A DNA stretch of 64,000 bases from Mobula hypostoma (GCF_963921235.1 NC_086097.1:82772001-82836000); one strand, 5' to 3'; shown: positions 13,111-50,053, counted from the first letter of the stretch. Notes: generated by a model not told the origin, from the letters alone. Program-made: numbers and translations.

Positions 13111-16100
13111 TCCATCTATGTTTGCTCCATCAACGTCCTGTCCAGGGAATACTGCTGAATATTAACATTCATTCTACCTTGAACTCCACATTTTATTTCA
13201 AATAGTGTTTTGGACAATACTCGTCTTTGAGTGTCTTTGCATGCGATTTTTAAAAATACAGCTAATAATTAAACTAAGGAATTAGTTAAAATCTACTACA
13301 GTTGCAAGGTCTTGGTCATAAGTGCTTCATATAGCTAAGGCTATAATGCCATAGCATTCACTGAAAGGAACGTCACTGGCTGAACACAATACTGTACTCG
13401 AATGGGAAATGACTGTAAGATGTATATTTACCTATCCCTTGTTTAGATACATTGTCTTATTATGCTGTTTGTATACTGAATATCCTCAGGGAAGTTGTGA
13501 GATGACACAATGTTTCATATCTCCTGGCATTTACTTTCAGCTTTATATGCAGGACAATCCCATAAATAATGGTTAAATTCAACCATTTAACACAAAAGCA
13601 GAGAAAGGATCCATCTCAATTCCATCCCAGTCTTATTGGTTACTGATAACATGGGAATTTAACCAGTTTTCCTTTCCCATTCCATTGTCTATTCACCAGT
13701 TCAGTGCCATTTAGACATCAAACATTTATAATGTCACATGGATTTCCACTGAAGTGTTTTTTCATGTACAGTAAGTAGTCTATTTTCGTCTGCTGCACAG
13801 CATTTGAGTAACTTTATGTGTCCCTGCCACATTCCATCCCGTACCTTGTTGTTTCAGGTACTGGTTGTGATTGGGTAATTTATTCTTCCCTCAAAGCCCT
13901 AGCCAAGTTTTGTCATTTGCATGGAACAGAAAATCACAGAGGCAGATGAGCCTATGCAACAGTGTCAGTTGCACGTCATATGTCTGATGCCACATGCATG
14001 AAAATTTTTACAGCACATCTACATTTGTAGTATTGGCATGAGCCTTGAAAGTTGAAGCAGGCTTTTGCCTGAGGTGATGTGATCTCTTCAACTGATGATC
14101 CTTGCTGTACACTCCTACCTCCAAGATATCAATATCATTGGGCATAAGAAATGCATGGTTATTGACCCTCTAGCACCCTCCTCTTTTCAAGAACAAAAGT
14201 TCACCAAAGTATCAGGATTGTTGAAAGGAATGGTTCATTGACAGCTTTAACTCCCATTTTCAAACATTTTCAAAAATTAGGCAAATGATAAGTGAATCAA
14301 TGCCCGGAAATTTATCGTAGTCAAAATGGTCACCAGTTAGAGGTTTCTTAGTTATCCTTTATTGCACTTCTGTCTATTTATAAAGCTATCTCTGCATCAC
14401 AGTATAGCATGCCTTTGCAGTGGCAATTCAGTTGTTAATTTAGGCTCAGTGTGGTAGAAAGCCCACTGCTGGATGGAAGGGTGATGGAGTGGGAGAACGT
14501 GTCATCAGATGGATATGCTACACGAGAGCCAGAGGTTACCACTGACACTCTGAATTTCCAGTTGTTGCCTCAATGGAAACTTGTGGTTGTTGGTTAGCCG
14601 CTCCTGAACAGCATATCCATCTGCCGACAATATGTCCCACTCCCTCATGTGGAAAGACTGTGAAGATATGGAAACAACAGATAACTGGCAATGGCATACA
14701 CGTGGATTTAGATTTAACTGGAGGGGGTATTTAATATACTCATATGGAAACAAAGGTTTGTTAGAGTCATAGAACACTACAGCACATACACAGGCCCTTT
14801 GGCCCATCTAGTCTGTGCTAAACTATTAATCTGCCTAGTCCCATTGCCTGCACCCAGACCATAGCCCTCCGTACCCCTCACATTTATGCACCTATTCAAA
14901 TTTCTCTTAAGTGTTGAAATCAAACCCACATCCACTACTTACACTGGCAGCTCTTTCCACAGTCTCCCCATCCCCTAAGTGAAGAAGTTCCCCCCTCATG
15001 TTCCCTTTAAACATTTCACCTTTTACCCTTAATGCATGACCTCTAGTTCTAGTCTCACCCAATCTCAGTAGAAAAAACCGCTCATGATTTTGTGTATAAA
15101 AACAGTAGTAGTGAGGATGGGGATCGTATTAAACAGGAAATTAGAAATGTGTGCAATAAAGGAACAGCAGTTATAATGGGTGACTTCAATCTACATGTAG
15201 ATTGGGTGAACCAAATTGGTAAGGGTGCTGAGGAAGGATTTCTTGGAATGTATGCGGGATGGTTTTTTGAACCAACATAGCGAGGAGCCAACTAGAGAGC
15301 AGGCTATTCTGGACTGGGTATTGAGCAATGAGGAAGGGTTAATTAGCAATCTTGTCATGAGAGGCCCCTTGGGTAAGAGTGACCATAATATGGTGGACTT
15401 CTTCATTAAGATGGAGAGTGAAATAGTTAATTCAGAAACAAAGGTTCTGAACTTAAAGAAGGGTAACTTTGAAGGTATGAGACATGAATTAGCTAAGATA
15501 GACTGGCAAATGACACTTCAAGGGTTGACGGTGGATATGCAATGGGAAGCATTTAAAGATCGCATGGATGAACTACAACAATTGTTCATCCCAGTTTGGC
15601 AAAAGAATAAATCAAGGAAGGTAGTGCACCCATGGCTGACAAGGGAGATTAGGGATAGTATCAATTCCAAAGAAGAAGCATACAAATTAGCCAGAGAAAG
15701 TGGCTCACCTGAGGACTGGGAGAAATTCAGAGTTCAGCAGAGGAGGACAAAGGGCTTAATTAGGAAGGGGAAAAAAGATTATGAGAGAAAACTGGCAGGG
15801 AACATAAAAACTGACTGTAAAAGCTTTTATAGATATGTGAAAAGAAAAAGATTGGTTAAGACAAATGTAGGTCCCCTACAGACAGAAACAGGTGAATTAA
15901 TTATGGGGAGCAAGGACATGGCAGACCAATTGAATAATTACTGTCTTCACTAAGGAGGACATAAATAATCTTCCAGAAATAGTAGGGGACAGAGGGTCCA
16001 GTGAGATGGAGGAACTGAGGGAAATACATGTTAGTAGGGAAGTGGTGTTAGGTAAATTGAAGGGATTAAAGGTGGATAAATCCCCAGGGCCAGATGGTCT

Positions 16101-16972
16101 GCATCCCAGAGTGCTTAAGGAAGTAGCCCAAGAAATAGTGGATGCATTAGTGATAATTTTTCAAAACTCTTTAGATTCTGGACTAGTTCCTGAGGATTGG
16201 AGGATGGCTAATGTAACCCCACTTTTTAAAAAAGGAGGGAGAGAGAAACCAGGGAATTATAGACCGGTTAGCCTAATATCGGTGGTGGGGTAACTGCTAG
16301 AGTCAGTTATCAAAGATGTGATAACAGCACATTTGGAAAGCGGTGATATCATCGGACAAATTTAGCATGGATTTGTGAAAGGAAAATCATGTCTGACGAA
16401 TCTCATAGAATTTTTTGAAGATGTAACTAGTAGGGTGGATAGGGGAGAACCAGTGGATGTGGTATATTTGGATTTTCAAAAGGCTTTTGACAAGGTCCCA
16501 CACAGGAGATTAGTGTGCAAACTTAAAGCACACGGTATTGGGGGTAAGGTATTGATGTGGATAGAGAGTTGGTTGGCAGACAGGAAGCAAAGAGTGGGAA
16601 TAAACGGGACCTTTTCAGAATGGCAGGCAGTGACTAGTGGGGTACCACAAGGCTCAGTGCTGGGACCCCAGTTGTTTACAATATATATTAATGACTTGGA
16701 TGAGGGAATTAAATGCAGCATCTCCAAGTCTGCGGATGACACGAAGCTGGGCGGCAGTGTTAGCTGTGAGGAGGATGCTAAGAGGATGCAGAGTGACTTG
16801 GATAGGTTAAGTGAGTGGGCAAATTCATGGCAGATGCAATTTAATGTGGATAAATGTGAAGTTATCCACTTTGGTGGCAAAAACAGGAAAACAGATTATT
16901 ATCTGAATGGTAACATACATCAAAGTTGCTAGTGAACGCAGCAGGCCAGGCAGCATCTATAGGAAGAGGCGC

Positions 16973-17008
16973 AGTCGACGTTTCAGGCCGAGACCCTTCG
17001 TCAGGACT
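16973..17008 (-). ncRNA. Minimal type I hammerhead ribozyme motif (antisense arm)
   Basis: Reverse complement reads AGUC-CUGACGA-AGGGUCUCGGCCU-GAAAC-GUC-GACU. Confidence 0.7.
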
Positions 17009-17009
17009 T

Positions 17010-17045
17010 AGTTCTGACGAAGGGTCTCGGCCTGAAACGTCGACT
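17010..17045 (+). ncRNA. Minimal type I hammerhead ribozyme motif
   Basis: AGUU-CUGACGA-A-GGGU-CUCG-GCCU-GAAAC-GUC-GACU: stem I AGUU/GACU, intact CUGANGA and GAAA core, GUC cleavage triplet, palindromic ACGU in place of stem III. Confidence 0.7.
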
Positions 17046-19435
17046 GCGCCTCTTCCTATAGATGCTGCCTGGCCTGCTGCGTTCACCAGCAACTTTGATG
17101 TATGTTGCTTGAATTTCCAGCATCTGCAGAATTCCTGTTGTTTGCATTTAAATTATCTGAATGGTGGCTGATTAGGAAAAGGGGAGGTGCAATGAGACCT
17201 GGGTGTCATTATACACCAGTCATTGAAAGTGCGCATGCAGGTACAGCAGGCGGTGAAAAAGGCGAATGGTATGCTGGCATTTATAGCGAGAGGATTCGAG
17301 TACAGGAGCAGGGAGGTACTACTGCAGTTGTACAAGGCCTTGGTGAGACCACACCTGGAGTATTGTGTGCAGTTTTGGTCCCCTAATCTGAGGAAAGACA
17401 TCCTTGCCATAGAGGGAGTAGAAAGAAGGTTCACCAGATTGATTCCTGGGATGGCAGGACTTTCATATGATGAAAGACTGGATCGACTAGGCTTATACTC
17501 GTTGGAATTTAGAAGATTGAGGGGGGGATCTGATTGAAACATATAAAATCCTAAAGGGATTGGACAGGCTAGATGCAGGAAGATTGTTCCTGATGTTGGG
17601 GAAGTCCAGAACGAGGGGTCACAGCTTGAGGATAAAGGGGAAGCCTTTTAGGACCGAGATTAGGAAAAACTTCTTCACACAGAGAGTGGTGAATCTGTGG
17701 AATTCTCTGCCACAGGAAACAGTTGAGGCCAGTTCATTGGCTATGTTTAAGAGGGAGTTAGATATGGCCCTTGTGGCTAAAGGGATCAGGGGTATGGAGG
17801 GAAGGCTGGTGCAGGGTTCTGAGTTGGATGATCAGCTATGATCATACTGAATGGCGGTGCAGGCTCGAAGGGCCGAATGGCCTACTCCTGCACCTATTTT
17901 CTATGTTTCTATGTATAAAGCCTCTCTAAACCTCTCATGATTTTGTATACCTCTAACAAATCTCCCACCATTCCTTTATGCTCGAGGGAGTAAAGTCCTA
18001 ACCTATCAAGCTTTCCCTATAACACAGGTCCTTAAGTCTTGGGAACATCCTTGTCAATTTTCTCTGTACGCCTTCAAACTTACTGACATATTTCCTATAG
18101 ATAGGTTATCAGAACTGTATATAATTCTCCAAATTAGATCTTATCAATGTCCTATATAACTTCAACATACAATCCGAACTCCTGTACTCAATACTTTGAT
18201 CTGTGATGCCATTTTCAAGTAATTGCATTCGTAGATCCCTCTGTTCTCCTGCACTCCTCAGTGCCCTATCATTCACCATCGAAGTCCCACCCTGGTTTGT
18301 CCTCCCAAAGTGCAACACCTCACACTTGTCAGCATTAAATTCCACCCGTCATTTTTCAGGCTGATGCAAATCCTGCTTCTAGTTTTGATAGTCTTCCTTG
18401 CTGTCCACTATACCTCAAATATTGGTATCATCTGCACATTTGCTGATGCAGTTTACCACACCATCATCCAGATAGTTGATATGGATGACAAACAACAATG
18501 GATCCAGCACCGATATCTGTGACACAACGCTAGTCTCAGGCCTCCAGTCAGAGAGGCAACCATCTGAAATCAATATCTGATCCAATTTACTAACTCATCT
18601 TGAATGCAAGCAACTGAACCTAGCTCCTATGTAGGACCTCGTCAAAGGCCTTGCTGTAGTCCATGTAGACAACATCTGCTTCCTTGCTTTCATCAACTTT
18701 CCTGGTAACTTCCTTGAAAAACTCTGAAATATTGGTTAGACCTACCATATACAAAGCCTTGTTGACTATCCCTGTCTGTCCAAATACTTCAATACCCTGT
18801 CCCTTAGAGTGAAACTGAAGGAGAGATTTTCTTCACTGAGTCTGTGCTAGTCCTTTTTATGCTTAAACACACATGCACATACTTGTGTATACTTAAAAGT
18901 ACATGGTTATTAGGATCCAGGTTTCTCATTACTCACTACAGTACAGATCATTTGTAACTGGTTGATTACTGTTTCTCCTAGCCTATCTGGCACAGGAAAA
19001 ATATGCCAGATAGTGTCTTTTTTTTCTAAATTGTCTCAAGACTATATAATGTAATTATATATGTATGTGTGTGTAAAACAAGTAATTTTCGTACATTATT
19101 CTCTGAATAAATGGCTGACCATTGTGCTTTGTGTTGTTCAAAAAGCAATGTTAAGTCTAAATCTCAGAAGGGTTTGGATGCATTCAGATATTTTTTTAAA
19201 TTGTGCATTCTTCCTGTAGCAATGACATGATAATGCAATAGGTAAGTTATTTCATTTGTTCACATATTTTGTTATCTTCAGCTTGAACAAAAGCTGTTTT
19301 TTAATTCTACTATTTATTACAGCCATACAAATGCCTTGTAATGCTTATACGTTTAATCTATGTCAATGGACTTGGCTTGGTCATTAAAAGGAGACTGTCC
19401 ACTACCCTCTGCTCAAATAATGATCCATACCATCT

Positions 19436-27941: not shown

Positions 27942-29128
27942 AAACTGAAAAATTCAATTTTGGAGACAATTCCTGGCCGTCATTGTAAAATGCAAATGAA
28001 CAGAGCTATGATATCCAGCTCTTACAACTGATAGAAATCAATATTGTTTTGATTCCAGTTCAGCAAAGATGAATTCTTGATGCCTTTTCTCTGTAAATAA
28101 ATTCAATGTGTTTGTATTAATACAAATTTCAGTATTATTAAAAAATATCAATTTCATTATCTTTATGCTCTCAAAGCTATACAAAATGTCCGGTTCTTTG
28201 ACAGTATTGAGTAAACCTTTAAATGTGATATTTGGCTGATAGATACCCAGATAAAGCTTTAGCCATCTATAAGTTACATGGCTGAGTTCAGGAACTATAT
28301 GGGTAATTGTATTCTGACATAAACTGACAACATTTAATGGATTGTTTGTATTTGAAGCAAGGATCACAACTTTGAGCACCACTTTTTGTAATTCAACATT
28401 TTCACAATAACGTTACTTTAGAACAGCATAATCCTTAAATCACTGGATGTTAATAAGCGATCTGCTTCCTATCTCCTTTCCTCCTGCAATTAAGAAGGCA
28501 TTTGCCAATTCCAGCATGCCTCTGTCCATTGATGTTTGCAGCCCAGCAGCTGCACATCTTGCATTTCAGCATCTTTTGTGCACAATGCTGCAAGGATATA
28601 ATAGCCTGGGACTTTTGGCAGGAAGGCTGGTACCTGACGTAAACCAGCAAATTGTTCCTTGTCACAGATCATTAGTCTTCCGCCATCAGGAACTGATCAG
28701 CTGCATCACAACGCGAGCTTCTTAACCATTTCCAGACTGGTTAAGATCACTGTGTAGTCACTTGGCATTCTGAGATAATCCAACCAGTAGTGACAGAGCA
28801 TCCAAGCAACAGGACACATTATGATAGCCCACTCGCCAGGTTGGTTTGGGCTTCACTACATCACCAGGAACAATGGCTCTTGCAGCTTTAAATATAAAAC
28901 TGATCAACTTCCAGTTTGATTTTTGCAGCTGGCTGAAGGCAGGAGAGAAATAATGAGCTGCTTTAAAATATTTTCTGTCTGGTGAAATAATGACTTGAAT
29001 TTGTACCATTTATTTCTGCCACCAGTAATATGCAGAGCAAACTATGACCAGGTACCAGCAGTAAATAAGTGTAGGAGCCAAGTACAAAGATGGCACACAG
29101 GAAACTGATTTGGTTGATCGTTTTGCAG

Positions 29129-29280
29129 ATGAACGTGAAGTTGTGCAGAAGAAGACCTTCACCAAATGGGTGAACTCTCATTTGGCACGTGTGACTTGCC
29201 GCATTACTGACTTGTACACTGACCTTCGGGATGGCCGCATGCTGATTAAGCTGCTGGAGGTTCTGTCTGGGGAGCTACTG
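29129..29280 (+). CDS. SPTB: Spectrin beta exon, CH1 ([14 protein letters not shown]...LSGELL), 152 nt
   Basis: Acceptor ttttgcag and donor gtatgt; classic spectrin CH1 sequence. Confidence 0.96.
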
Positions 29281-30450
29281 GTATGTTCTCCACTCTAATG
29301 GAATTCATGATTTATGGTTTTGACTGTAATGGAGTGTTGAGGATTGATTTTGACATTGGAATACTTAAATTCAGAATATCTCTGCAACCATCTATAATCT
29401 GTGTGACTTTCCAAAACCACATGAAAATTAAGTGGTTTTATACAACTGTGCTTCAGAATTGGTCTAATAATTGTGAAAGATTAGCACTGAAAATATATAC
29501 TTGATAATAGAACAGCTCTATCTATTCACCTTACATGTTGCTTAATTGCTTCAGTCTTACTTTCACGAAATATAAAGTTCCAACCAACGCATGGCTATGA
29601 AAATATTTGGCCCCGAAGTTTAAGGATTGGCCGGAAGGATGTTACATGTTGGTCAGTGCTCGGGATACAGATATCCTGCACACCTTAATGTGAGAATAAG
29701 TTTCTTGTTACACTTGAAGTACAGCAGCCAGCTAAATTGATTGGTTGGTCACTTTCCAGGCAGGAAAACATACTTCGGGCATCATCTACAGAAACTGGTA
29801 GGCTGTAGACAAGTGAGAAATATGGACATGGCAAAGATGGAGGCATTAGAGAATGCTGCAGTATTCTCTAACCATCTTGCTCCAGCACAACTCTTATTTG
29901 CCTTTCATACATGGGTTTCCTGTGCTTTGAAAAATCCCAAGAGTAAATATTAATTTTGAATAAGGCTCCCAATTGCATTAGGTGCTGAATTAAATGTATT
30001 AATGAATTTTTTATGGTAGGATGTAGGATCATGCATAAAACACACAAGCCATAAGACTGACAGCAGACACACACATTGAATTGAGTAAGGGTTCGCACTT
30101 TTAAATTTCCCGTCACTTGGCCTTTCCCTGTATGTTGTTGGGAGGAGTATTTAACATGGTGAGGGGAAACGCAATTCATACCCTCTTTGTAGAGTTGAAA
30201 CAGTAAGAACAGAAACTTGGTGGTAGACAATACTGCCTCGAGGAGTGGTGGAGGCATGAAGTAGACTAAGTGGTTGGTGGTTAGCGGTTGGGAGTTTGAA
30301 TGATGAGAAAGCTCGGTTTTGTATACAACGGCATGGAGATGGACATCATCATTCAATAACCACCGGTCTTTATACAGCTTTCCTTTAAGTTGATTATAGA
30401 CAGCGATGAATATTTCTTTGTACTGAAAATATTCTTTTCTACCTAATTAG

Positions 30451-30624
30451 CCAAAGCCAACGAGAGGTCGGATGCGTATACATTGCTTGGAAAATGTTGA
30501 CAAGGCTCTCCAGTTTCTCAAGGAACAGAAGGTGCACCTGGAAAATATGGGGTCACACGATATTGTTGATGGGAGCCACAGACTGACACTAGGACTTATT
30601 TGGACCATCATTCTTCGCTTCCAG
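30451..30624 (+). CDS. SPTB: Spectrin beta exon, CH1 ([15 protein letters not shown]...IILRFQ), 174 nt
   Basis: Acceptor aattag and donor gtaact; phase 0/0. Confidence 0.96.
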
Positions 30625-31284
30625 GTAACTGGGAATATAAAAACTGGGGATTATTCTGGGAAAATGTATCTGTGGAATGGGATATCTAACTGACCTGTTG
30701 TCAGTGAGTATTTTCCAATACTGTATTTTATTCCTGAGCTCTGCTATTTGCATCTTAGAAGAAAGCTTTAAAGCAATGCCAATTGTAAGTCAGTTGTTCT
30801 TCCCACAGTCCTTATTTCAAGGAGATTGAGATCCATGCTACTGTCTCAACCATTCATCATATTCTCTTGGATGATAGGAGATTAGAATGCTAATGATAAA
30901 TCTTTACTATTGACACAGACATTTGCAGCTCTGATTTTCCTTTTTTCTAAATTCCTTCCCAATATTCTATTCTTGTGCTTTTTCTCAGCCATCCCTCCTC
31001 TTTTTCACCCTCAGATTTTTCTCTTTTCTGATGTCCATTTACCATTTTTCCTCACTCCCTTGTCTCTTCCCTTCACTTCATTTTCCTTCTCCCATTCAAT
31101 TCATTGCCTTCTTCTCCACATTGTTTCATCTTATTAATGTCCTCGCTTTGCTAAATTCCTTTTATTCCTCTCCTCTACCCTCCACGTCCCACTCTTCCAT
31201 TCACTGTATCCTTCTTCACCTCTCCAGGCTACCTTCCTCATCCAGTTTTCTCCAAGCTCTCATACTGAAATTTCGTGATGAAGT

Positions 31285-31527
31285 CTTTTTCATGGCTTTT
31301 TACAAGGCGTGGCGCGAGAGAGAGAGCGAAAGAGAGAGACTGTGTGGCGCACCACTCCTCACACAGACATTTTCACAGTATTCTTCCCTTTACGAAGTCG
31401 AGTTGCGATCTCAACACTCAACCCGGCACGGATGGAAAGCGAACTCGGGAGTGGACCCGACTGGTTTCGAACCCAGGAACCTCTGCTCCCGAGTCCGGCA
31501 CCAATGTCATTGCGCCACCAGCCAGCC
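31285..31527 (-). mobile_element. tRNA-derived SINE (family distinct from the V-SINE)
   Basis: Minus-strand head GGCTGGCTGGTGGCGCAATG (A box) ... GGTTCGAAACC (B box), followed by a non-tRNA body; CpG-rich and so probably young. Confidence 0.7.
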
Positions 31528-31857
31528 CCCCTTTCCTCATCTTCTGTACCCACTATCCCATATTTCAGCTTTCCACTTTCCCTCCGTTTGTTACCCTTCT
31601 CCCTCACTTGCTGTTTTCCCTCATTCCCTTCATAATCTTTAAGTTGTTGACTTCCTAGACAGTTTGACCTTCAGTTTGCAACACAGTAAAAATTAGATTT
31701 GTTTTAATTTTTTAATTTTCCAGAGTTTTAAATGGAGATTGGACTACAAATATATTTTCCACTTCAATTGTTCTTGCTAGAGTTCTTGTGAATGCAGTTC
31801 AAATGTCACTTTAATCTTTTTTTTAAAAAACGGCTGTTGATTAATCTGTTATTTCAG

Positions 31858-31949
31858 ATCCAGGATATCACAGTGGAAACCGATGACTATAGTGAGACTC
31901 GGTCAGCAAAGGACGCACTTCTCCTTTGGTGTCAGATGAAAACAGCAGA
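31858..31949 (+). CDS. SPTB: Spectrin beta exon ([30 protein letters not shown]), 92 nt
   Basis: Acceptor atttcag and donor gtgagt; translated by hand (not in the ORF track). Confidence 0.95.
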
Positions 31950-32102
31950 GTGAGTTACTACTGCTGCTTCATGTGAAGCTTTCAGTGAACCTGACCTTTA
32001 ATGCAAATACCTGCAAACTTTGATCTGAATTTCCATCAAAGATGAAATGTAAAATAATCTCAAATTAAATTTATTTCTTTTTTTCTTTTCTATAATACCT
32101 AG

Positions 32103-32183
32103 ATATCCTAATGTAAACATCAGAAACTTCACATCAAGCTGGAAAGATGGCTTAGCATTTAATGCCCTTATCCACAAACACAG
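32103..32183 (+). CDS. SPTB: Spectrin beta exon, CH2 ([27 protein letters not shown]), 81 nt
   Basis: Long polypyrimidine tract with cctag acceptor and gtaatg donor; 153-nt upstream intron. Confidence 0.95.
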
Positions 32184-32299
32184 GTAATGTGTGGCTTTGT
32201 CTATCACTAGTTAGGAGAATGTAACTAACTTTAGTCAGGGAGCAATTGTTGGAGGTCACTAAATATGAGAAATTGATTCATCAGGATCATTTCAAATAT

Positions 32300-32460
32300 A
32301 CTTATTTATTATTTATTGAGATACAGCACGTAGTAGGCTCTTCCAGCCCTTTGAGCCGCGTTGCCCAGCAACCCCCGATTTAACCCTAGTGTAATCATGG
32401 GACAATTTACAATGACTAATTAACTTATCAAATGGTACGTCTTTGGACTGGGAGGAAAAT
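32300..32460 (-). mobile_element. V-SINE 3' half
   Basis: (TTAT)n tail and GTCTTTGGACTG..GGAGGAAA, the reverse complement of the 39764 copy. Confidence 0.75.
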
Positions 32461-33011
32461 TACTTGGAACTAAATGAACTTTAAGGATGTGGAGCTTGTA
32501 ATGAAATAAAGGACTTTAAAGCTGAATTGCCCGTTCTGGTTTTCACAACACATGTCACATTGAGAGGGAAGCAAGCACGAGCAGCTTCATTTCTCTGATC
32601 TATGTTCTCTTCCTGTACGAAAGGGCAAACAAATGTACAATTGGATGAGGACAGGACTTCAATGGGAAGGAAAAGAGAAAATAAGTAACACTGGGAACCT
32701 ATCGGATCCAAGATTTCATTCTGAAACTTAATTCCATTTGCTTCTCAGATACTGCTTGACCACTGAGGTCCTCCAGCAAATTGTCTATTGCTCCAAATTC
32801 CAGCACCTACAGTCTTTTGTGTCTCCATTGTATAAAGCATGAGCAAAGGTTCAGCTATGTGGGATAATCAAGAAAAAAACTATCAAAGTTAACTTGTATT
32901 TGTTGAATTTAGAAGATGCAAAAGTAGTATAGCTGGGTTTTTCAGAGAACATCTCACAGGAGATGACATGAATTTGTCTAAACAGAGGAAATCATCTTTT
33001 TCTATAATTAT

Positions 33012-34009
33012 TGAAACCACCCCGCCCCCCACCCCCGGTTTCCTTGGCTGCATAAGTCGAGGGAGACAACCTCCAGCCCCAACAAACTTGTGAGATTGAG
33101 GTGCTGTCCCACCCCAAACTGCTGTACGTGTGGATGCTGTGTAATTTGCTTCCCGTTACACATTAGTGCCATGAAATAGCAGAGAGTACACCGCATACGA
33201 TTTAAAGATTATATTTATCAATCTTAATTTGAATAAGGGTTGAATAATCAACGACACGACCCACCCAGCCAACACACTTTTCGTCCCTCTTCCCTCCGGG
33301 AGAAGGCTCAGGAGCTTGAAGACTCGTACGGCCAGATTTGGGAACAGCTTCTTTCCAACTGTGATAAGACTGCTGAACGGATCCTGACCCGGATCTGGGC
33401 CGTACCCTCCAAATATCCGGACCTGCCTCTGGGTTTTTTTGCACTACCTTACTTACCACTTTTCTATTTTCTACTTATGACTTATAATTTAAGTTTTTGA
33501 TATTTACTATCGATTTGTAATCCAGGGAGCGGGAAGGGCAGAATCAAATATCGCTGTGATGATTGTACATTCTAGTATCAATTGTTTGGCGACAATAAAG
33601 TATAAAGTATAAAGAACAAAAAAAAGAAAAGGGCTCATTTTAATATAACAGTCAAATGTGTACAAGTTGGAGCTCAGTTTCTCCATAGTTAATGGTCCTT
33701 AATCAATCTTGCCCCTGGCTTCATCAAATCGTGGTCCCACTCTGGGTCAAATCCTACGACCTCTTCTCTCTTGCGTCTTCCCTCTTCATCTCCTCTCAAA
33801 CAAAAGCCCCAAGCCCAATCTTAGTGTCCCTCACCAGAGAAACCTCCCCTTAATTCTACCATCCTAATTGGATTGCAGATATATCTCCTCATCTCTTATC
33901 TTCAGCAATAACCTAAATAAGCTGAAATAAGCTGAACAGACTGCTCTTACAGAACTGCTAAATAAAATAAATACAGCGTAAGAGTGAAAATATGAACCAG
34001 GACATTACA
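33012..34009. mobile_element. Solo LTR with a nested LINE 3' fragment (~33243-33612)
   Basis: TG...CA termini, near-TSD TTAT/TAAT and homology to 22041-22634. The nested Rex1-like piece has LPSGRRLRSLK and a (TAAAGTA)n tail. Confidence 0.65.
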
Positions 34010-34702
34010 TAATAATTTAAGAACCTTTTAAAAATTGAGACTTAATGTCATTTCAGCAAATAATATCTATATCTTAAATTTCCTCTCAAATATTAATTTC
34101 TGCTTGATTAATCTATCTTTGTGTGCCCAGTTCACTGTTGTCCAACTCCGGTCCAAATATCTGATGCAAAATCATCATAACATTTTTATTGGTATAATGG
34201 TACCCTGATTTTTAAACCAAAGATGTTGTTGTGTTTTAGATAATGCCATAAACTGTAGTGAACACCTATGCTGAGCCAATAAGTACTGTCAGTGGGCTAA
34301 GCTTCTATCCTTCTGTGTCATCAGTGATAAAATATATACTAAGTAGAAAAAAGCCACTCATGCTAGATTTTCATTCATTTGTTTATTTGAGTTATTTAGA
34401 TTTTATGCTCATGTTTGAACTTGTGCTGTAATAAAGGAAAGAAGAGTATTTGGGTTCAAACTTGGTTTAAACCACTTACAATAAGTCACTGTTGCCAGTG
34501 GGGTGCATGACTTTTAGTTTCAGGAGCTGGCTTTTGGAATTGTGTAGACAACACAGTAAGGTAGTTTTAAAATGGATCTGGATTGTCTTTTGGGCATTTT
34601 GGCAAAATGTCAGAACACTATGAAAATTCATGCATAGCTTTATTCGACAATAACAAACAGTAGAAAATCAGAAATACTTACAATGTGTTTTTCCTTCTTC
34701 AG

Positions 34703-34818
34703 GCCTGATTTGATTGAGTTTGACAAACTGAAAAAGTCTAATGCCATGCACAACTTACAGAATGCCTTTGATGTCTCCGAGAGGCATCTGAATGTGACCA
34801 AACTGCTGGATCCCGAGG
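34703..34818 (+). CDS. SPTB: Spectrin beta exon, CH2 ([13 protein letters not shown]...LLDPE), 116 nt
   Basis: Acceptor cttcag and donor gtaagt. Confidence 0.95.
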
Positions 34819-35634
34819 GTAAGTTTCATGAAAAACTTGCCAGACAGTTATGGGCGTATATAGCCAAATGAGCTTCCGTGATGTGAAGCTTGCAATGGAA
34901 CAGTGGGCTGTAACATACATTCCATATCAGGTGTTCAGAACACACACCACATTGAAAGGGAAGCAATATTTAGAAGCCCCAATTCTCTTTTCTAAATTCT
35001 CTTCATATATGAGGTGATTAATGGTGTATAATTCAATGAAGACTGTTAGTCTAGGATTGCTTTAAATTTGTTTGTATTTACAAGGTTGAAGTAATGTGAC
35101 ATAAGCAGCCTTTTGTCTGAATGCTTTGTGAGTAAAACCACCAGATGTAAAATTTATGGGCGGCAACAGTAGCATAATGTAGTAATCTAATGTGTTAATA
35201 ATAAGTTTCTGGATTTGCATCCAGAATTCTTGGCAATAATACATGGGCATGAATTTGATTCCCACCATTCAAGTAACTAAGTAGATATGTAATTTAAAAA
35301 TAAAAAGGAAGTCTTAGTAATGGTACTTACAAAACCACCGGATTATAGTTAAAACTCCACCTTTTTCATTGAGATCTCCTTCAAAGAAGGAAACCTGCCT
35401 TCTTTACTCCATCCTAAGTGTCAGTACAGACCCATTCCTTAGTGCTCTTGAAGTGAGCACATAAATATTCATCACTGCCGACTCAGGGGCAGTTAGGAAT
35501 GCACAATAAATGTCGGCATATCTCAGAACAACACATCCTATTGTTTAAAAAACCTAGTTTTGTCATCTTGCAAAACTCTGGCTTTCTTTTCCTCATTGAC
35601 CACGGAATTGAAAGGCTTTGTTCAACTTTAGGTA

Positions 35635-35899
35635 CGCAAACACAAGGAAATCTGCAGATGCTGGAATTTCAAGCAACACACATAAAAGTTGCTGGTGAAC
35701 ACAGCAGGCCAGGCAGCATCTCTAGGAAGAGGTACGGTCGACGTTTTGGGCCGAGACCCTTCGTCAGGACGAACGAATGTCCTGAACGAATAACTAACTT
35801 AGTTAGTCCTGACGAAGGGTCTCGGCCCGAAACATCAACTGTACCTCTTCCTCGAGATGCTGCCTGGCCTGCTGCATTCACCAGCATCTTTTATGTGTG
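35635..35899. mobile_element. PLE-derived fold-back insertion
   Basis: Inverted arms around a 30-nt spacer (35771-35800), tail on the left. TSD TTGTTCAACTTTAGGTA (35618-35634 / 35900-35916; the first bases are microhomologous to the element). Confidence 0.9.
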
Positions 35900-36092
35900 T
35901 TGTTCAACTTTAGGTAATGTGTTTAGGTTTTTATCTTATCTAATCTTTTGGATCCAATTCAGATAGAAATCTGCAATTTGCATGATTGTTTGAATAACAT
36001 ATTCTTCTGATCGAAGTGCATTTTCCCCTTTATTGAGTGATTTTGAAGAAAAAGTAAGCATTCTCTTTTTTCCTATTTCTTTCCCCACCCAG

Positions 36093-36205
36093 ATGTCTTT
36101 ACAGAGAATCCAGATGAAAAATCAATCATTACCTATGTGGTGGCATTTTACCATTATTTCTCCAAGATGAAGGCATTAGCAGTGGAGGGGAAAAGGATTG
36201 GCAAG
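36093..36205 (+). CDS. SPTB: Spectrin beta exon ([38 protein letters not shown]), 113 nt
   Basis: Acceptor cccag and donor gtttgt; translated by hand. Confidence 0.95.
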
Positions 36206-38409
36206 GTTTGTGTCGTAAAGAATGTCTGTTTAGGTAACAGGCTTCATCCAATAAAGTAATGGTAGCAGAATACAATTCTGGAATGAGAAGATTGATCTCC
36301 CATTACCTGTGAGAAATTCCTGAGAGTTGGCACTTCTGCCTTTTCCTGGAAAACTCTTACTGTTTAAGATGCTAGTCAGAGAGCACTCAAGAAAATGGGA
36401 TTTATTTTTTGTTCCTGAGGGCAGTGAAAGAATAAAGCTGTTCAATACAATGCCATTTTGGTAAGAGGAGAATAAACAGAACTTATTTCCACTGAAAGAA
36501 TGGTCAATTGCTGCAGGAAGCAGGCAGAAAAATGTGGCAAAAGAGACAGGGGGAAGGACCTCTTTCAATGCAGGGAGTTGAGATCTAGAATGCATAACCT
36601 GAACTGGCAGTGGAAAAAGGTTTAGTGGTAATTTTCAAAAGTGAATTGGTGCAATAGCTATAAAAAAAAATGGAGAACTGTTTAAAGAGGATGATTTGGA
36701 TAATTTGGATGATTTCTTTACAGATTCCATGCCAACAGTTTGCTGCATCATTATAAACAGAGTGAAGTTTCAACACACATTTCTCCTGATGGTCACAAGC
36801 TCACTTTTTTTCATTCGGGAGGGATGGAGGTTATGGATTAGGAAATGTGATCAAGAATTAGTAACTATAATCAAACATTTTCATAAAAACAGCTCAGTTG
36901 TTAGCTGTTAGTGCTGACATCAAGTCAGTATTGAATTGATGATTTGGGGTCACGGTCTGCCTGCTTTTGCTGTATTTCGGAGATCAGTTGCTGTGCAAGT
37001 CCATTTTCTCATCAGTTTTCTGTCAGGCTGTGACACAACAGTATTCAAGCATGTATGACTGTATATTTGATATCATTGGTGCTCAAAAATTGTGGCTGGA
37101 AAATTCAAATTTTGCGTCCTTTGCTTCCACTGTTCAGAACTGTAGAACAAATTTAATGTCACAGCGGAAATTATTCTCAACCAAGTTTTGGATGAGAAAT
37201 GCAAAACCTCATTTGATGCAATCAGATATTGTGATCAGTAATATAAATATTGTATTCATACTCATACATTCAGTATAAAAGTTATTCCTTTTTTCAATTA
37301 TTGGCTATATCTCCCGGGTCTTAGAAGATACAGTAACAAAGAGTAGGTTGAAAGAGCTAAACCCTTCATAATACAGTTTGTATGGAAAGTAAGCCAAGAG
37401 TGGTTCCTATAGGATCAGCTATCTCTCCATTTTCCCCATCCTCACAATTTGCTTGGCCCTGCCCACCTCTGGACAAATCTGACCATCTGTTCCCTCAAGT
37501 ACCCTAGAACATTGTTGAGCAGGAAGGGGATTCCCCATCACCTTTTCCCTTCAACCTGCTCCAAAGACTATCATTGAAACCACCTTCACAATCACGACCT
37601 GTTCACCATCCACCCCCCTCACCTCAATAATTAGGTACCCCATGATTCCTTCTAACCCCTCTGTACCTCCCATAGCAAACTTTCCATGTTACTGCATTGA
37701 GCTATGGATGTTCCCTCTTGATGGCCCTGTCCCATTAGGATAGCAGGCACAAAGCCAGCAGTGGAAAGCAAAAACTGAAAGGAAATCCTACTCGAGAAAC
37801 AATTGCTTTCAGGTCTTCTGGTCTCAAAATAATCTCACTTTGAGCACTCTTCACAGCAACACTCCCGGCCATGGTTTCTATATCCCAACGATTGTTAAAG
37901 CTTTGTAGAACACATTTATGGCCTGGTGACTCAGATGACTAGTGAATCATTGAATCACACAGACAAAACCTCCCAATGCAATTTATATTCTGCTGAATTA
38001 GCTCTAACCAACCTGGTAGCCTTGTGGAAACAGGTAGCTTGTACCAGTTGCAATGACACCAATGAATTTTGCCTGTTACTTTGCCTCTTTTTGGATATTA
38101 GACCAAGACTGCAGGGGTATTAGAACAAAGCTTTAATTGAAGTTTGTAACTTGTAGTTTTTGTGTACATGTGGTTTAGGCCTCTACACAAGCCAAAACTA
38201 AATCATATCTGGCTGCCTTAAATCCCTTGTAGACCAATACACGTATCAGGAGCAGTTTTAAACCAGCTGTTCTTAAATTATTAACTGCTCTTGTATCTCC
38301 TCCCCCATGGTAGTAACAAGACAATGGCTTGTCCCACATGGTGACGGTCCTTAGTGATGGATGCTGTTTGAAATCTGAAAACAATCCTGTGATGCCAAAA
38401 CTGTTTAAA

Positions 38410-38650
38410 AGGCACCTTAACAACATTTTAAAAGTGATGGTTCTGCCTTCTTTGAGGTACTGCCTCATGAAGATATTCTTCGCAGTAGGGAGGGCAGTGT
38501 ATATGATGGAGCTTGGGGGTGTCTACAATCCTCTGCAGCCTCTTACAATCCTATGCATTGGAGCCTCCATACCAGGGTGTGATGCAGCCAGTCAGAATGC
38601 TCTCCACTGCACGCTTGTAGAATCCTGCAGGAGTCCTTGCTGATGTACCA
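38410..38650 (-). mobile_element. Rex1/Babar-like LINE fragment; a related 3' end lies at ~39025-39220
   Basis: Reverse complement of the CLKKA..I / SILTGCI regions; tail AGAATCAGAATC at 39024. Confidence 0.6.
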
Positions 38651-39264
38651 AATACTGGAGCTGCCCTAAAAACAGTCCATACTAACCCTTACATGCCATG
38701 TAACTGCCAGTATCAAAAGTGAGGTTTTTGTAGAGCAGCAGTTTGCTGAAGCCTGTTTTTCCAGCACAATGTGGATATGTTTGTACATCTTGCAGTCAAT
38801 CAAATTGCAGCAGGAGGCAGGTATCATGGCAGCACTGAGGCATCTTGAAAAGATTGCTTCTTTCCCTCTGAGTTACCTTTTTCCCAGACAAGGTCATAAC
38901 AGGCTAACTTGCAAATGCATTTTCTTGAAGATAGAAATTCACTTCACTACTTTTTATCTCAATTGAAGCCAACCCTTATGCTATTATGATCAAATACCTG
39001 TCTGTGAGCTCATAGTGTGTGAAGAATCAGAATCTGGTTTAATATCGTTAGCATATGTCATGAAATTTGTTTAGTGACAGCAGTCCGTTGCAACAAATAA
39101 TAAAAATCATAAATTACAAGAAGTATGTATAAGAAGTAGTGCAAAAAGAGAGGAAAATTACTGAGGTAGTGTTCATGGGTTCATTGTTGATTCAGAAATC
39201 CGATGATGGAGGGGGAGGAAACATTGAGATGTGTATGCTTACCCAGATGTTGTACTTTTCTTAG

Positions 39265-39452
39265 GTGCTGGATAGTGCAATTGAAACCCAGAAAATGATC
39301 GAGAAATATGAAGAGTTGGCATCTGACCTGCTAACGTGGATCGAGCAAACCATCATTGTCCTGAACAGTCGGAAGTTTGCCAACTCATTGACTGGGGTGC
39401 AGCAGCAGCTGCAGGCCTTCAACACTTACCGCACAGTGGAAAAACCTGCAAA
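39265..39452 (+). CDS. SPTB: Spectrin beta exon, repeat 1 ([15 protein letters not shown]...VEKPAK), 188 nt
   Basis: Acceptor ttcttag and donor AA|gtcagt. Confidence 0.95.
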
Positions 39453-39763
39453 GTCAGTTGTAGAATCGGGATGTTAAATGTTTTCGCTTACAGCTAGTAT
39501 TTTTATGCACTTTCTCATATCTCACTGAAGGGGGTCATTATAGACCTATGATCACGCTGTGGAGTTATTGAATATGCATTGTCTGAGAACGGCACTTCTG
39601 CATTAGATAATAACAGACTGACTGATTCATAGGTCATAGATTCACCAAGTTAATTCCTGGTATGACACAGCTGACCTAACAAGAGGGGTTTAACAGATTG
39701 GAATTATATTCTTTGGAATTTAGAGATTAAGGGGTGTCCTTATCGAGGTATATAAAATCCCAA

Positions 39764-40044
39764 GGGTAGCACGGTAACGTAGTGGTTAGCACAACACTTT
39801 ACGGTACTGGAGATCCAGGTTCAATACCCGTCACTGCCTGTAAGGAGTTTGCACGCTCTCCCTGTGACCACGTGGGTTTCCTCTGGGTGCTTCGGTTTAC
39901 TCCCACAGTCCAAAGAACTACTGGCTAGTAGGCGAATTGGTCATTGTAAATTGTCCTATGATTAGGCTAGGATTAAATCGGGGATAGCTGGATGGTGCAG
40001 CTCGAAGGGCCAGAAAGGCCTATTCTGAACTGTGTCTCAACAAA

Positions 40045-40075
<31 letters not shown>

Positions 40076-40077
40076 AT
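39764..40077 (+). mobile_element. Full-length V-SINE/HE1-like SINE inserted in an old CR1 3' fragment (~39600-40350)
   Basis: A box GTAGTGGTTAG, B box GGTTCAATACC, V-domain GGGTTTCCTCTGGGTGCTTCGGTTTACTCCCACAGTCCAAAGA, CR1-like 3' end and (TAAA)n tail. Confidence 0.88.
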
Positions 40078-40389
40078 ATAGTAACTGCGTAGGTGTGAAA
40101 ATGCTTTCACCAGTAGGAGACTATCAAGTGAGAGGATGTAGTTACCAGATAAGCGTCCGGCCATTTAAAACAGAATTTTATTTTTGTACAGGGTAGTGAA
40201 TCTCTGGATTTCACTGCCCCAGGAGGCTGTGGAATTCAGACTTCTGGAAGTATTTATAGTGGAACTGGGTATAGTGAAGAGAAGAGGAATTGAGGTCAGC
40301 ATAGATCAGCCATGATCATTAAATGGTTGAGCAAGCTTGAGAGGGCCAGATGTTTCAAATTCAGACTGTGGTCAGGGACAAGAGCTTTT

Positions 40390-41545
40390 GACTCTGAGTG
40401 AAGCAGGTAGGTGTATCCTGAGAGGAAGAGCTGGAGGACCCTTAGTCCTGGAACTTGTCCAACAGGTTGAGATTCTTATTCCCTGTGCAGATAGGAGTGG
40501 GAGCTGTAGTAAGGATAAGCAACTGAACTGTGATTCAGGGAGAAAAGAAAAATATAGTTGTAATTGGGGTTAGTATCGGCAGGGGAATAACACCATTCTC
40601 TGTTGCAAGGATAGAGGGTCCCAAATCTTTACCCAGGGTTGAGACAGCTCATTTGACTTGCAGAGGAGTTTGGAGTTGGAGAGGAGAAATCTAGTTATTG
40701 TAATCCATGTGGCTGCCAGCAACATAGGAAGAACAAGGAAAGAGGGTTCTGCTGTGGGAATTTGTGCAGCTAGGAACTAAATTAAAATGCAGAATCTAAA
40801 AGCTAATAATTCCTGGATTGTTACCCGAGGCATGTAAAAATTGACACAGGGTTAATTAGATCAGAGATTGGTGTGGGAGAAGTGTCTTTGAATTTGTGGG
40901 ATATTGGCACCAGGATTGGGGAAGGAAGGAGCTATTTTAATGGGACAGGCTACAATATGATGTTTTGGGCATCACAAAGTCATAGTGAAAGAAGAACACA
41001 GCTGGGTACTGAACACCCAAGGATACATATCTTATAGAAGAGATGGAGGTGGCCAGAGTGGGGGGGGGGGGGGGTTGTCTCTGCTGGTAGAAAATAAAAT
41101 CAAATCCTTTACAAGAAGAGACATAAGATCAGAAGATCTAGAACTCCTGACGTTAAAGTTAAGAAAATGCAAAAGTAAAAAGACTCTGATGGGAATTATA
41201 GACAGGCCTCTAAATAGTAGCCAGGATGTGGGGTACAAATTACACTGGGAGATAGAAAGGGCAAGTAAAAAGGGTAATGTTACATTAGTCATGGGAGATT
41301 TCAGTATGCAGGTAAGTTGGATATGTCAGGTTAGTACCAGATACCAATACAAGGAATTTGTAGAATGGCTGTGAGATGGTTTTTTTACGGCAGTTTGTGG
41401 TTGAGCCCATTAGAGAAAATGCAATTCTGGATTTTGGTGTTGTGTAATGAACCAGATTTGATTAGGTAGTTTAAGGCAAAGGAACCGTTAGGAGACAGTG
41501 ATTATAACATGATAGAATTCACCCTGCAATTTGAGAGGAAGAAGC
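40390..41545 (+). mobile_element. Degenerate CR1 ORF1-end/APE endonuclease fragment
   Basis: GYISYRRD..GGG.SLLV, MGIIDRP, VMGDF; homologous to 60557-61150. Confidence 0.7.
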
Positions 41546-42229
41546 ACAGAAAAAGGTTTGATTGTGACCTCCAGTGCTATCTCAGTGGAGTCTGAACATT
41601 CCACTTGTGACTGCTTACATTTCCCCAGATGCACCAGTTTCCACTCATAACCCAAATGGTGTGCCAATTTGCAAGTAAATTGGACACTGTAAGATGCCCT
41701 GAGTGTAGGTGGATGATATGAGAATCAGGCTATCAATAGGCCTAGTGATACTGGGTTGCAGGAAGATTAGTAGGGAAATGGGATGTTGGGGTTGTTCTCA
41801 GAGCCATTCTTGACTCAGTCGGACAAATGACCTCTCTCAGCATCAGTTCACATTTCAAGAACAAATAGTTAAAAACAAAACTTAAATCACATCATTGCTA
41901 ATTTCTGATTCTGTTTGATTAAACCGTTGTTGATGCTGGCTTGTATTTTTAATATTAGTTAAAGTATCTGTCAGTAGAATCTTGAATATCACTTACAATG
42001 ACCTAAAAATAGATTTTAATAATAACAAAGCTAAGCTGGTGAAGCTGCACAGCATTGCTTTGGCATCTGCGGCATCTCTTTCTATGCTTTGTGACTTTCT
42101 TCTACGCAACACTGACAATGCTTAATTTCCAGTGCACAGCACTCTTTTCACAGTTGTATTGCCGATGCCAACTTTCCGAAGCTCCGTTTAATTTGCAAAA
42201 CAGCTACTGAAGTTGCGATCTCTCGACAG

Positions 42230-42347
42230 ATTCCAGGAGAAGGGTAACCTTGAAGTACTGCTGTTCTCCATCCAGAGCAGGATGAGGGCAAACAACCAGA
42301 AAGTGTACACACCACATGAGGGCAAACTTATCTCGGACATTAATAGA
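42230..42347 (+). CDS. SPTB: Spectrin beta exon ([39 protein letters not shown]), 118 nt
   Basis: Acceptor tctcgacag and donor gtaaga; translated by hand. Confidence 0.95.
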
Positions 42348-42619
42348 GTAAGAAGTTAATTCTCTCTGTTTAATAAATTCAATAAGCTTTAACCCTGTTT
42401 AACTGTTGGATAAATATGTCTTCTGTTGTTGTTCTGGATGAAGTTTTTTTTACTTGCAGAGGGTTTATGACACAGCAATCAGTGGCCTTTTTGTAGTTGA
42501 TTTAAGTAACTTGTGCGAGAGCCTTTACTACTCCTCTCCATGTGCAATTCATAGATTAATGAACCATTCAGCAGTGTTTCACGTAAAACTTCAGTTTTGC
42601 ATGCTATGTCATCTTTTCC

Positions 42620-42932
42620 ACTGAGGTTGGGTGGGACTGCAACTAGAGGTCATGGGTTGAAGGTGCAAGGTGAAAGGTTTAAGGAAACACGAGGGCAAAC
42701 TTCTTTACTCAGTGGGTCGTGACAGTGTGGAATGAGTTGTCAGCACAAGTGGTGCATACAAGCTCAATTTCAATGTTTAAGAGAACTTTGGATAGGTACA
42801 TGGATGGTAGGGGTATGCAGGTCTATAGTCCTGGTGCAGGTCAATGGGTGTGGGCAGTTTAAGTAGTTCACTATGGACTAGATGGACTGAAGGGCCTGTT
42901 CCTCTGTGCTATACTCCTCTATGACTCCATGA
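42620..42932 (+). mobile_element. CR1 3' end
   Basis: ACTAGAGGTCATGGG..TTCTTTACTCAG..GTGTGGAATGAG..GAAGGGCCTGTT..(CTATGACT) tail. Confidence 0.75.
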
Positions 42933-49956: not shown

Positions 49957-50053
49957 GTATGTAAAGATAGCAGACTTTTATGTTTCTGTAACATCTGATT
50001 TTGTTATTTTTAAAGTGAAATGAAGACGAAATATAGAGGTAGGAGAGATTTAT

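What the first reader, a model, noticed from the sequence alone, without database searches (positions are those of the whole stretch)
16912..17151. Near-perfect 97-bp fold-back PLE insertion carrying an intact hammerhead motif on each strand
Seen: a TSD-flanked 240-bp insertion that is a 97-bp palindrome (2 mismatches, 1-nt loop) made from the PLE 3' end, with back-to-back hammerhead motifs at its centre. Both arms share a variant (AACATACAT) that the otherwise near-identical PLE end at ~62032 lacks (AACACACAT), so both arms probably came from one template. Established: PLEs carry minimal hammerheads and often insert with an inverted partial terminal repeat. Inference: this is the smallest such product. 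It is either a repeatedly generated fold-back of the cDNA or a self-standing non-autonomous MITE/retrozyme-like unit with ribozymes in both polarities. In SPTB pre-mRNA it would form a ~100-bp dsRNA stem.
Basis: partly seen in the sequence, partly recalled or inferred. Interest (0 to 1): 0.7.

Follow-up and report, generated by a model that had tools for sequence, protein, structure and literature searches.

The report
Two-armed Penelope retroelement insertion hairpin
This 240-base hairpin is a young, heavily shortened insertion of a Penelope-like jumping gene whose copying step leaves two head-to-head copies of the element's end; the self-cutting RNA motif on each strand comes along with that end and is predicted to stay locked in the hairpin, so this is a clean example of a known pattern.

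Summary
In detail: 97-nt arms with 2 mismatches, a 1-nt centre, a 14-bp target duplication, a minimal hammerhead motif on each strand, and one variant shared by both arms. It is the 3' end of a Penelope-like element (PLE) inserted into a CR1 LINE, probably in a beta-spectrin intron. One arm carries the 39-nt PLE 'tail' and the other stops at the tail boundary, as in both other hairpins of the window. Head-to-head PLE insertions with a one-sided tail, and hammerheads on opposite strands, are already published. Most likely both nicked target strands primed cDNA at the two tail-defining sites, and the two cDNAs were then joined. It is not the smallest such product (54266-54485 is 220 bp). A replicating hairpin family is unlikely: the three junctions differ, and this hairpin is closer to the ORF-bearing PLE at 62 kb than to its sister hairpins. 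Each hammerhead is predicted to be buried by more than 60 kcal/mol. One open lead: the short copies start at the 5' edge of the hammerhead, at a splice-acceptor/initiator-like site and not at the cleavage site, which may mark a fixed RNA 5' end. The scan has reported this kind of insertion before elsewhere in this genome.

The parts
16898..16911 (+). Left copy of the 14-bp target-site duplication (CR1 sequence)
16912..17008 (-). Short arm: PLE 3' end without the tail; on the + strand it reads as cDNA from the left target end
16973..17008 (-). Minimal type-I hammerhead motif, - strand; predicted cleavage after 16977
17008..17009 (.). Head-to-head junction, fully templated with 1 nt of overlap; the long arm starts directly after the CAG that precedes the hammerhead in the long PLE
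17010..17045 (+). Minimal type-I hammerhead motif, + strand (U-G pair at the core end of helix I); predicted cleavage after 17041
17008..17145 (+). Long arm: PLE 3' end with tail, 98.5% identical to 62130-61993
17107..17145 (+). 39-nt one-sided 'tail'
   Evidence: definition in PMC8557442 and PMC11167929
17146..17151 (+). 6 bases between the PLE end and the duplication; origin unexplained
17152..17165 (+). Right copy of the target-site duplication
15101..17915 (+). Host LINE (CR1-type by recall); its RT frame is interrupted by the insertion; ends approximate
   Evidence: RVT_1 84.8 bits; 95% identical to the LINE at 60818-64000; frame resumes after the duplication
61993..63584 (-). Reference: 5'-truncated PLE with RT C-terminus, CX4CxxC linker, GIY-YIG domain, pyrimidine-rich 3' region, hammerhead and tail; 11-bp duplication; no inverted arm
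35635..35902 (.). Sister hairpin, older; long arm on the left; complex junction with templated pieces; 14-17-bp duplication
54266..54485 (.). Sister hairpin, 220 bp; long arm on the left; 13-bp duplication
53186..53322 (+). One-armed short copy of an older subfamily, starting at the hammerhead's 5' edge; 14-bp duplication
58117..58292 (.). Older two-armed copy with a short inverted arm that lacks the hammerhead; no duplication longer than 6 bp found
29128..59420 (+). Beta-spectrin coding exons (erythroid-type more likely); the finding lies upstream of the first exon seen, in an inferred intron

Best explanation
A dead, newly formed product of one integration event by an endonuclease-bearing PLE (Neptune/Nematis type by motif). 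Shown in the sequence: a 14-bp duplication, two outward-facing copies of the PLE 3' end, one with and one without the tail, and a templated head-to-head joint. Inferred: the endonuclease cut both target strands 14 nt apart; each 3'-OH primed reverse transcription on PLE RNA, one at the outer and one at the inner tail-defining site; both cDNAs stopped near the 5' edge of the hammerhead, were joined through 1 nt of overlap and filled in. The hammerheads are passengers of the terminal repeat. In any transcript they are locked in a ~97-bp stem, so the likely effect of the locus is inert or silencing-prone dsRNA in an intron, not ribozyme activity.
For: All 3 of 3 hammerhead-bearing hairpins have a one-sided tail, and their short arms end within about 1 nt of the same place, abutting the duplication; chance is about 0.002-0.005 under uniform nulls of 60-100 nt (post hoc, null assumed). 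A purified Anolis PLE protein cleaves and extends both target strands, initiates at two adjacent internal sites that bound the tail, and does not need hammerhead cleavage for insertion (PMC11167929). An adjoining inverted 5'-truncated copy and a 30-40-bp one-sided tail are standard PLE features (PMC8557442; PMC3846280). The three junctions differ, and this hairpin is nearer the ORF-bearing PLE (1-2 of 87 sites) than the other hairpins (7-13 of 82-87). The parent ORF has full-length relatives with RT domains: the best is 53% identical over 99% of the query, and P0063 and P0068 carry both PF00078 and PF01541. It has the CX2-5CxxC and GIY-YIG motifs. A hammerhead-open fold costs 66.1 (+) and 60.9 (-) kcal/mol.
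Against: Only three hairpins could be studied; no genome is held. None of the 15 of 253 joints displayed in the read-laying changed strand, so junction diversity was not measured genome-wide. The biochemistry comes from a Poseidon-clade element, while this one has the Neptune/Nematis linker. PMC3846280 reads the same head-to-head palindromes as self-priming on an antisense template. The Pfam GIY-YIG score (21.6 bits) is just under the curated cut-off of 22.6. The 6 extra bases at 17146-17151 are unexplained. The variant shared by both arms fits single-template copying equally well.
Confidence: 0.72

Rival explanations
1. Same origin (a by-product formed anew by the PLE) but by self-priming or fold-back: one cDNA, or an antisense template, turns back and copies itself, as proposed for rotifer Penelopes.
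For: Both arms share a variant absent from 5 other young copies. PMC3846280 proposes self-priming for head-to-head palindromes.
Against: The junction here has only 1 nt of overlap, and the cDNA-sense DNA around it does not fold better than shuffles (z 0.63, 147 of 200 as good). Fold-back does not by itself explain why 3 of 3 short arms end at the tail boundary. The other two hairpins have 0 private shared variants.
Confidence: 0.19
2. A self-standing non-autonomous hairpin family (MITE- or retrozyme-like) that is copied as a unit and has ribozymes in both polarities.
For: Similar size and layout in three window copies. The family end is extremely abundant (201,087 contigs laid in run X1). Animal retrozymes derive from PLE terminal repeats (10.64898/2026.07.22.740005).
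Against: Three different junctions and no sequence grouping of hairpins. Duplications of 13-17 bp vary in length. No head-to-tail tandem units at this locus. The hammerheads are buried, and no pair changes on both sides in 7 distinct window copies (too few and too alike to be a strong test).
Confidence: 0.05
3. An assembly artefact, or a later rearrangement of a one-armed insertion.
For: Near-perfect palindromes can arise as read or assembly chimeras (general knowledge). I did not lay reads on this locus itself.
Against: A perfect 14-bp duplication flanks the whole two-armed unit, and the host frame resumes after it. The arms differ at 2 sites. Two older hairpins whose arms differ at 8 of 87 and 9 of 82 sites have the same layout.
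Confidence: 0.04

Closest known systems
Inverted or head-to-head insertions of endonuclease-bearing Penelope-like elements with a one-sided 30-40-bp tail (Craig et al. 2021, PMC8557442; Arkhipova et al. 2013, PMC3846280)
   Same: Inverted 5'-truncated copy adjoining the 5' end, palindromic junction, tail on one side only, a single duplication around the whole unit.
   Different: Here nothing lies between the arms: no ORF and no direct repeat, only two terminal-repeat pieces. Host is a cartilaginous fish by earlier scan notes (not tested here).
Minimal hammerheads (min-HHR) of metazoan PLEs (Cervera and De la Pena 2014, PMC4209133)
   Same: Type-I layout, 4-bp helix I, an extra base between positions 9 and 10.1, palindromic 15.2-16.2, no helix III loop. 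That paper already reports dual motifs ~100-700 bp apart on opposite strands, and an intron 3' end at the 5' edge of helix I in D. virilis.
   Different: The two motifs here are 1 nt apart. Pair 10.1-11.1 is G-U in this subfamily (G-C in 5 of the 7 distinct window copies). Helix II is 4 bp.
Anolis Poseidon PLE in vitro (Frangieh et al. 2024, PMC11167929)
   Same: Cleaves and extends both strands, has two adjacent internal start sites bounding the tail, prefers AT-rich/ATT targets (two duplications here begin ATTAT), and needs no hammerhead cleavage for insertion.
   Different: Different clade by linker motif. The parts I read (1 and 2 of 4) do not derive head-to-head hairpins or a fixed 5' stop from this activity.
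Animal non-LTR retrozymes (Li, Clavereau and Pollet, bioRxiv 10.64898/2026.07.22.740005)
   Same: Short, non-coding, hammerhead-bearing, derived from PLE terminal repeats.
   Different: Defined as head-to-tail tandem units thought to move by rolling circle; this locus is a single head-to-head pair.
L1 twin priming (recalled, not read here)
   Same: Both target strands prime on the RNA, giving an inverted piece within one duplication.
   Different: In L1 the two pieces are non-overlapping parts of the RNA. Here both start within 39 nt of each other and copy the same stretch, which gives a palindrome.

Membership tests
Endonuclease-bearing PLE insertion | Derived from an element with an RT plus C-terminal GIY-YIG ORF | tested here: met
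   The arms are 98% identical to the end of 61993-63584, whose ORF has YIDD, CX4CxxC and GIY-YIG with internal cysteines; relatives with PF00078 and PF01541; Pfam GIY-YIG E 2.6e-4, just below the cut-off
Endonuclease-bearing PLE insertion | Target-site duplication of variable length | tested here: met
   14 bp here; 11-17 bp at four other copies
Endonuclease-bearing PLE insertion | Inverted 5'-truncated copy adjoining the 5' end | tested here: met
Endonuclease-bearing PLE insertion | 30-40-bp tail at one end only | tested here: met
   39 nt, 17107-17145; same in both sister hairpins
Neptune/Nematis clade | CX2-5CxxC linker between RT and endonuclease | tested here: met
   62827-62801; definition
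Neptune/Nematis clade | Placement in an RT phylogeny with named references | not tested
   The relatives returned carry no clade names
PLE minimal hammerhead (min-HHR) | Core CUGANGA, GAAA and UH with helices I and II, and palindromic 15.2-16.2 | tested here: met
   Both strands
PLE minimal hammerhead (min-HHR) | Extra base between positions 9 and 10.1 | tested here: met
PLE minimal hammerhead (min-HHR) | Highly conserved G10.1-C11.1 pair | tested here: not met
   G-U in both arms and in the 62-kb copy; G-C in the older copies. A conserved trait in PMC4209133, not part of its search descriptor
PLE minimal hammerhead (min-HHR) | Covariation in helices | tested here: inconclusive
   91.1% of 56 cells paired, 0 pairs changed on both sides, not above shuffles (251 of 500); only 7 distinct rows
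PLE minimal hammerhead (min-HHR) | Self-cleavage as a dimer or with protein help | not testable with these tools
   Folding predicts burial in this locus
Rfam hammerhead families | Reaches a family's gathering score | tested here: not met
   0 hits; no hammerhead at E<=5
Non-LTR retrozyme | Head-to-tail tandem units | tested here: not met
   A single head-to-head pair at this locus
Non-LTR retrozyme | Circular or unit-length RNA | not testable with these tools
   No raw RNA reads were offered
MITE | Many copies with the same internal junction, uniform ends and a fixed short duplication | tested here: not met
   3 of 3 junctions differ, ends are asymmetric, duplications are 13-17 bp; window only

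The most novel reading that the evidence does not exclude
The hairpin centres record a fixed 5' end of the PLE RNA. The longest arm of five short insertions starts at -2, -4, -2, +2 and +8 relative to the first base of helix I. Two hairpins of different subtypes start at exactly -2, right after a CAG that follows a branch-point-like motif and a pyrimidine tract and overlaps an initiator-like CAGT. All five start 24-36 nt upstream of the predicted cleavage site. If the enzyme binds its start sites near the 5' end of its own RNA and both target strands copy to the end of the template, these ~140-nt arms are PLE 'strong-stop' run-off products. The very many copies in this genome would then map the RNA end and the two priming sites at base resolution, and would test the unresolved PLE integration model directly. 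I found no such statement in two searches of a library that lacks most subscription papers.
Probability: 0.3. Interest if true: 0.6.

Novelty: new member of a known kind. Interest (0 to 1): 0.24.

Why it matters
As a locus it matters little: it is one young copy of a published insertion pattern in a very large family. Its value is as a clean specimen. All 12 CpGs in the arms are intact and both junctions can be read exactly, so it fits the idea that two-strand priming at the tail-defining sites builds the head-to-head structures of PLEs, which papers describe as still unexplained. If the clustering of 5' junctions at the hammerhead's edge holds genome-wide, it would locate the template's 5' end and argue that ribozyme cleavage does not define it.

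Tried and rejected
No whole genome is held, so junctions could not be collected genome-wide. Rfam gave no hammerhead; the microRNA and sRNA hits are generic long-hairpin matches and were rejected. Junction-pattern scans returned 39 metagenome and 2 viral loci; 0 of 41 matched the PLE end by blastn, so they are chance matches. A second viral scan gave 1 locus (not compared further), and the prokaryote genome scan gave 0. Read-laying on the 62-kb PLE end was inconclusive. Depth halves just past the hammerhead (X1 11.1M to 5.2M; X5 7.6M to 3.4M), and the largest listed loose-end pile is at 62128 (287 in X1, 273 in X5). But the loose letters are purine-rich with 0.37-0.38 agreement, and a similar pile at 62092 (272, 243) looks like an older subfamily, so sequence divergence explains these signals as well as truncation does; I do not count them as support. 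Only 15 of 253 joints, 18 of 1857 loose ends and 40 of 180 variant rows were shown. None of the shown joints changed strand or had intron-type ends, and the arm variant was not among the shown rows. X21 laid 0 reads, and X12 is only guessed to be RNA. Editing and expression of this locus were not tested. The high word shares (0.93 at best) may come from the source sample and from repeats, so they are not independent support. My first constrained fold used a 3-bp helix II register; one search ran both registers with the same conclusion. The unit's translation does not match the first 120 residues of 120 relatives (best hits are on the wrong strand, E>=0.004). The sigma-70 scan is not relevant to a vertebrate. 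The Lunse et al. dimer paper is not held; I know it only from the review PMC6765202 (passages). One paper search returned only shark zoology. No supplements were read; the supplementary figures of PMC11167929 and PMC4209133 may bear on junction positions and on opposite-strand motifs.

Full report
Observation. The palindrome is real: arms 16912-17008 and 17010-17106, 97 nt, 98% complementary, with mismatches at 16931/17087 and 17005/17013. It folds at -211.3 kcal/mol, better than all 200 shuffles. A perfect 14-bp duplication flanks the 240-bp insertion. The host is a LINE RT frame (RVT_1; 'CR1' is my recalled label) that resumes after the duplication and is 95% identical to a second LINE at 60818-64000. 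All 12 CpGs in the arms are intact, so the insertion is young. The right arm continues 39 nt past the palindrome, followed by 6 bases I cannot assign.

What the arms are. The long arm matches 62130-61993 at 98.5% over 138 nt. That stretch is the end of a 1.6-kb, 5'-truncated element with its own 11-bp duplication. Its ORF holds the RT C-terminus, a CX4CxxC linker and a GIY-YIG motif with internal cysteines. Pfam GIY-YIG scores 21.6 bits against a cut-off of 22.6. A search of longer proteins found 170 relatives among 3712 candidates; the best is 53% identical over 99% of the query and carries PF00078, and P0063 and P0068 carry both PF00078 and PF01541. By the definitions in PMC8557442 (passages) this is an endonuclease-bearing PLE of Neptune/Nematis type; no tree was built.

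Other copies in the window. A profile search gave 14 hits at E<=0.004. They belong to ten insertions: three hammerhead-bearing hairpins (this one, 35635-35902, 54266-54485), one older two-armed copy (58117-58292), one short one-armed copy (53186-53322), two long copies (ends at 61993 and 47140) and three decayed pieces (536, 5472, 32746) whose 5' ends cannot be read. In 3 of 3 hairpins one arm has the 39-40-nt tail, and the other stops within about 1 nt of the tail boundary, next to the duplication. Simulated chance is 0.002-0.005 (null assumed, statistic chosen after looking). The three junctions differ: 1-nt overlap here, a complex templated insert at 35.8 kb, and unequal arms with 1-nt overlap at 54.4 kb. 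This hairpin differs from the ORF-bearing PLE at 1-2 of 87 sites and from the arms of the other hairpins at 7-13 of 82-87, so the hairpins do not form their own lineage. The variant shared by both arms is private among the 7 young sequences compared; the other hairpins have none. It fits one template, two RNAs from one source locus, or conversion. The 54-kb hairpin is 220 bp, so this one is not the smallest.

The hammerheads. Both strands carry the minimal type-I layout of PMC4209133 (passages and parts 1-2 of 4 read): 4-bp helix I, intact core, an extra A, 4-bp helix II and palindromic 15.2-16.2. Rfam does not score them. Pair 10.1-11.1 is G-U in this subfamily, and the + strand copy has a U-G pair at the core end of helix I. 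In 7 distinct window copies 91% of cells pair but no pair changes on both sides, which is no better than shuffles; the test is weak. On either strand the motif is transcribed after its own complement, and partial transcripts already fold into the long stem. A hammerhead-open fold costs 66.1 (+) and 60.9 (-) kcal/mol, against 4-5 for the motif or the long arm alone. The same paper reports no cleavage for a single motif, low cleavage for dimers, and dual motifs on opposite strands 100-700 bp apart. 'Ribozymes in both polarities' is therefore a consequence of the inverted duplication and is already in print.

Mechanism. PMC11167929 (parts 1-2 of 4 read) shows a purified PLE protein cutting and extending both target strands, starting at two adjacent internal sites that bound the tail, with no need for hammerhead cleavage. 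The geometry here matches. From the left target end the top strand reads as cDNA starting at the inner site; from the right target end the bottom strand reads as cDNA starting at the outer site; the two meet head-to-head. The cut, the two primings and the joining are inferred; only the product is seen. The main rival is self-priming, proposed in PMC3846280 (passages and discussion read). It explains the shared variant but not the fixed short-arm end, and the cDNA-sense DNA at the turn has no special fold.

The open lead. The longest arm of five short insertions starts at -2, -4, -2, +2 and +8 relative to helix I, 24-36 nt upstream of the predicted cleavage site. The chance that 5 of 10 lengths fall within 13 nt is 0.026, 0.002 or 0.00006 for mean lengths of 100, 200 or 500 nt (post hoc, and three of the ten have unreadable ends). 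In both long copies this point follows a branch-point-like motif, a pyrimidine tract and CAG (motif labels from my own knowledge), and the same CAGT fits an initiator. In D. virilis the intron's 3' end maps to the 5' edge of helix I, 46 bp plus a 75-bp intron downstream of the start site (PMC2377424, passages). A fixed RNA 5' end, giving run-off products, would explain the clustering. RT stalling or junction choice by short matches would too. Public data did not settle it: 201,087 contigs of run X1 were laid, depth halves past the hammerhead and loose ends pile at 62128, but subfamily divergence gives the same signal, and none of the 15 of 253 joints shown changed strand or looked spliced. Two paper searches found no statement of a PLE strong-stop product, in a library that lacks most subscription journals.

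Gene context. Ten beta-spectrin exons lie at 29128-59420 on the + strand. Over residues 99-784 of the joined query, proteins named erythrocytic are about 70% identical (P0020-P0026; P0042 67%, P0022 64%), and those named non-erythrocytic are 58-66% over their own matched spans, so SPTB-like is likely but not proven. The exon for residues 1-47 is not in the window, so the insertion probably lies in a long upstream intron. A ~97-bp stem in pre-mRNA follows if that holds; expression and editing were not tested.

Earlier scan notes. The scan has reported the same kind of fold-back insertion at several other places in this genome. These notes are unchecked and not counted as support; one gave me the id of PMC4209133.

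Verdict. A real, young, well-preserved example of a known PLE insertion pattern; not a new element and probably not an active ribozyme locus. Interest 0.24. The possible fixed RNA end is worth a genome-wide count (probability 0.3, interest 0.6 if true).

Noticed in passing
window 15101-17915 and 60545-64000: Two LINE copies that are 95% identical were each hit by near-identical PLE ends (98.5%), and both target duplications begin ATTAT; this may reflect a shared burst or a target preference.
   Followed up: partly
window 60545-61992 and 63586-64000: The second LINE keeps long open frames for its endonuclease and RT on either side of the PLE, so it was probably young when hit.
   Followed up: partly
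window 62094-62128 (runs X1, X12, X5): Joints that go back 35 nt (3, 1 and 1 contigs) suggest rare head-to-tail duplications of the hammerhead motif itself, which could supply the dimer these motifs need.
   Followed up: no
window 62129-62160 (- strand) and 47005-47041 (+ strand): Branch-point-like motif, pyrimidine tract and CAG directly upstream of the hammerhead in two divergent subfamilies; on the other strand the young copy reads as donor-like GT motifs.
   Followed up: partly
window 16931, 17013, 16916/17102, 17146: Both arm-specific changes are C-to-T in PLE sense at non-CpG sites while all 12 CpGs in the arms are intact; the shared variant is G-to-A. Too few changes to interpret.
   Followed up: no
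window 17146-17151: Six bases between the PLE end and the duplication; not found at the other copies' ends.
   Followed up: partly
window 35771-35800: The junction of the 35-kb hairpin holds short templated repeats of both arms, resembling end-joining scars.
   Followed up: partly
window 17008-17145 vs 61993-62130; 45687-46760 vs 62409-63570: Oppositely oriented PLE copies (99% over 138 nt; 77-81% over about 750 nt in three pieces) could also pair within one spectrin pre-mRNA.
   Followed up: no
window 53184-53187: The one-armed copy has one extra G at its 5' junction, which could be cap-templated or a substitution.
   Followed up: no
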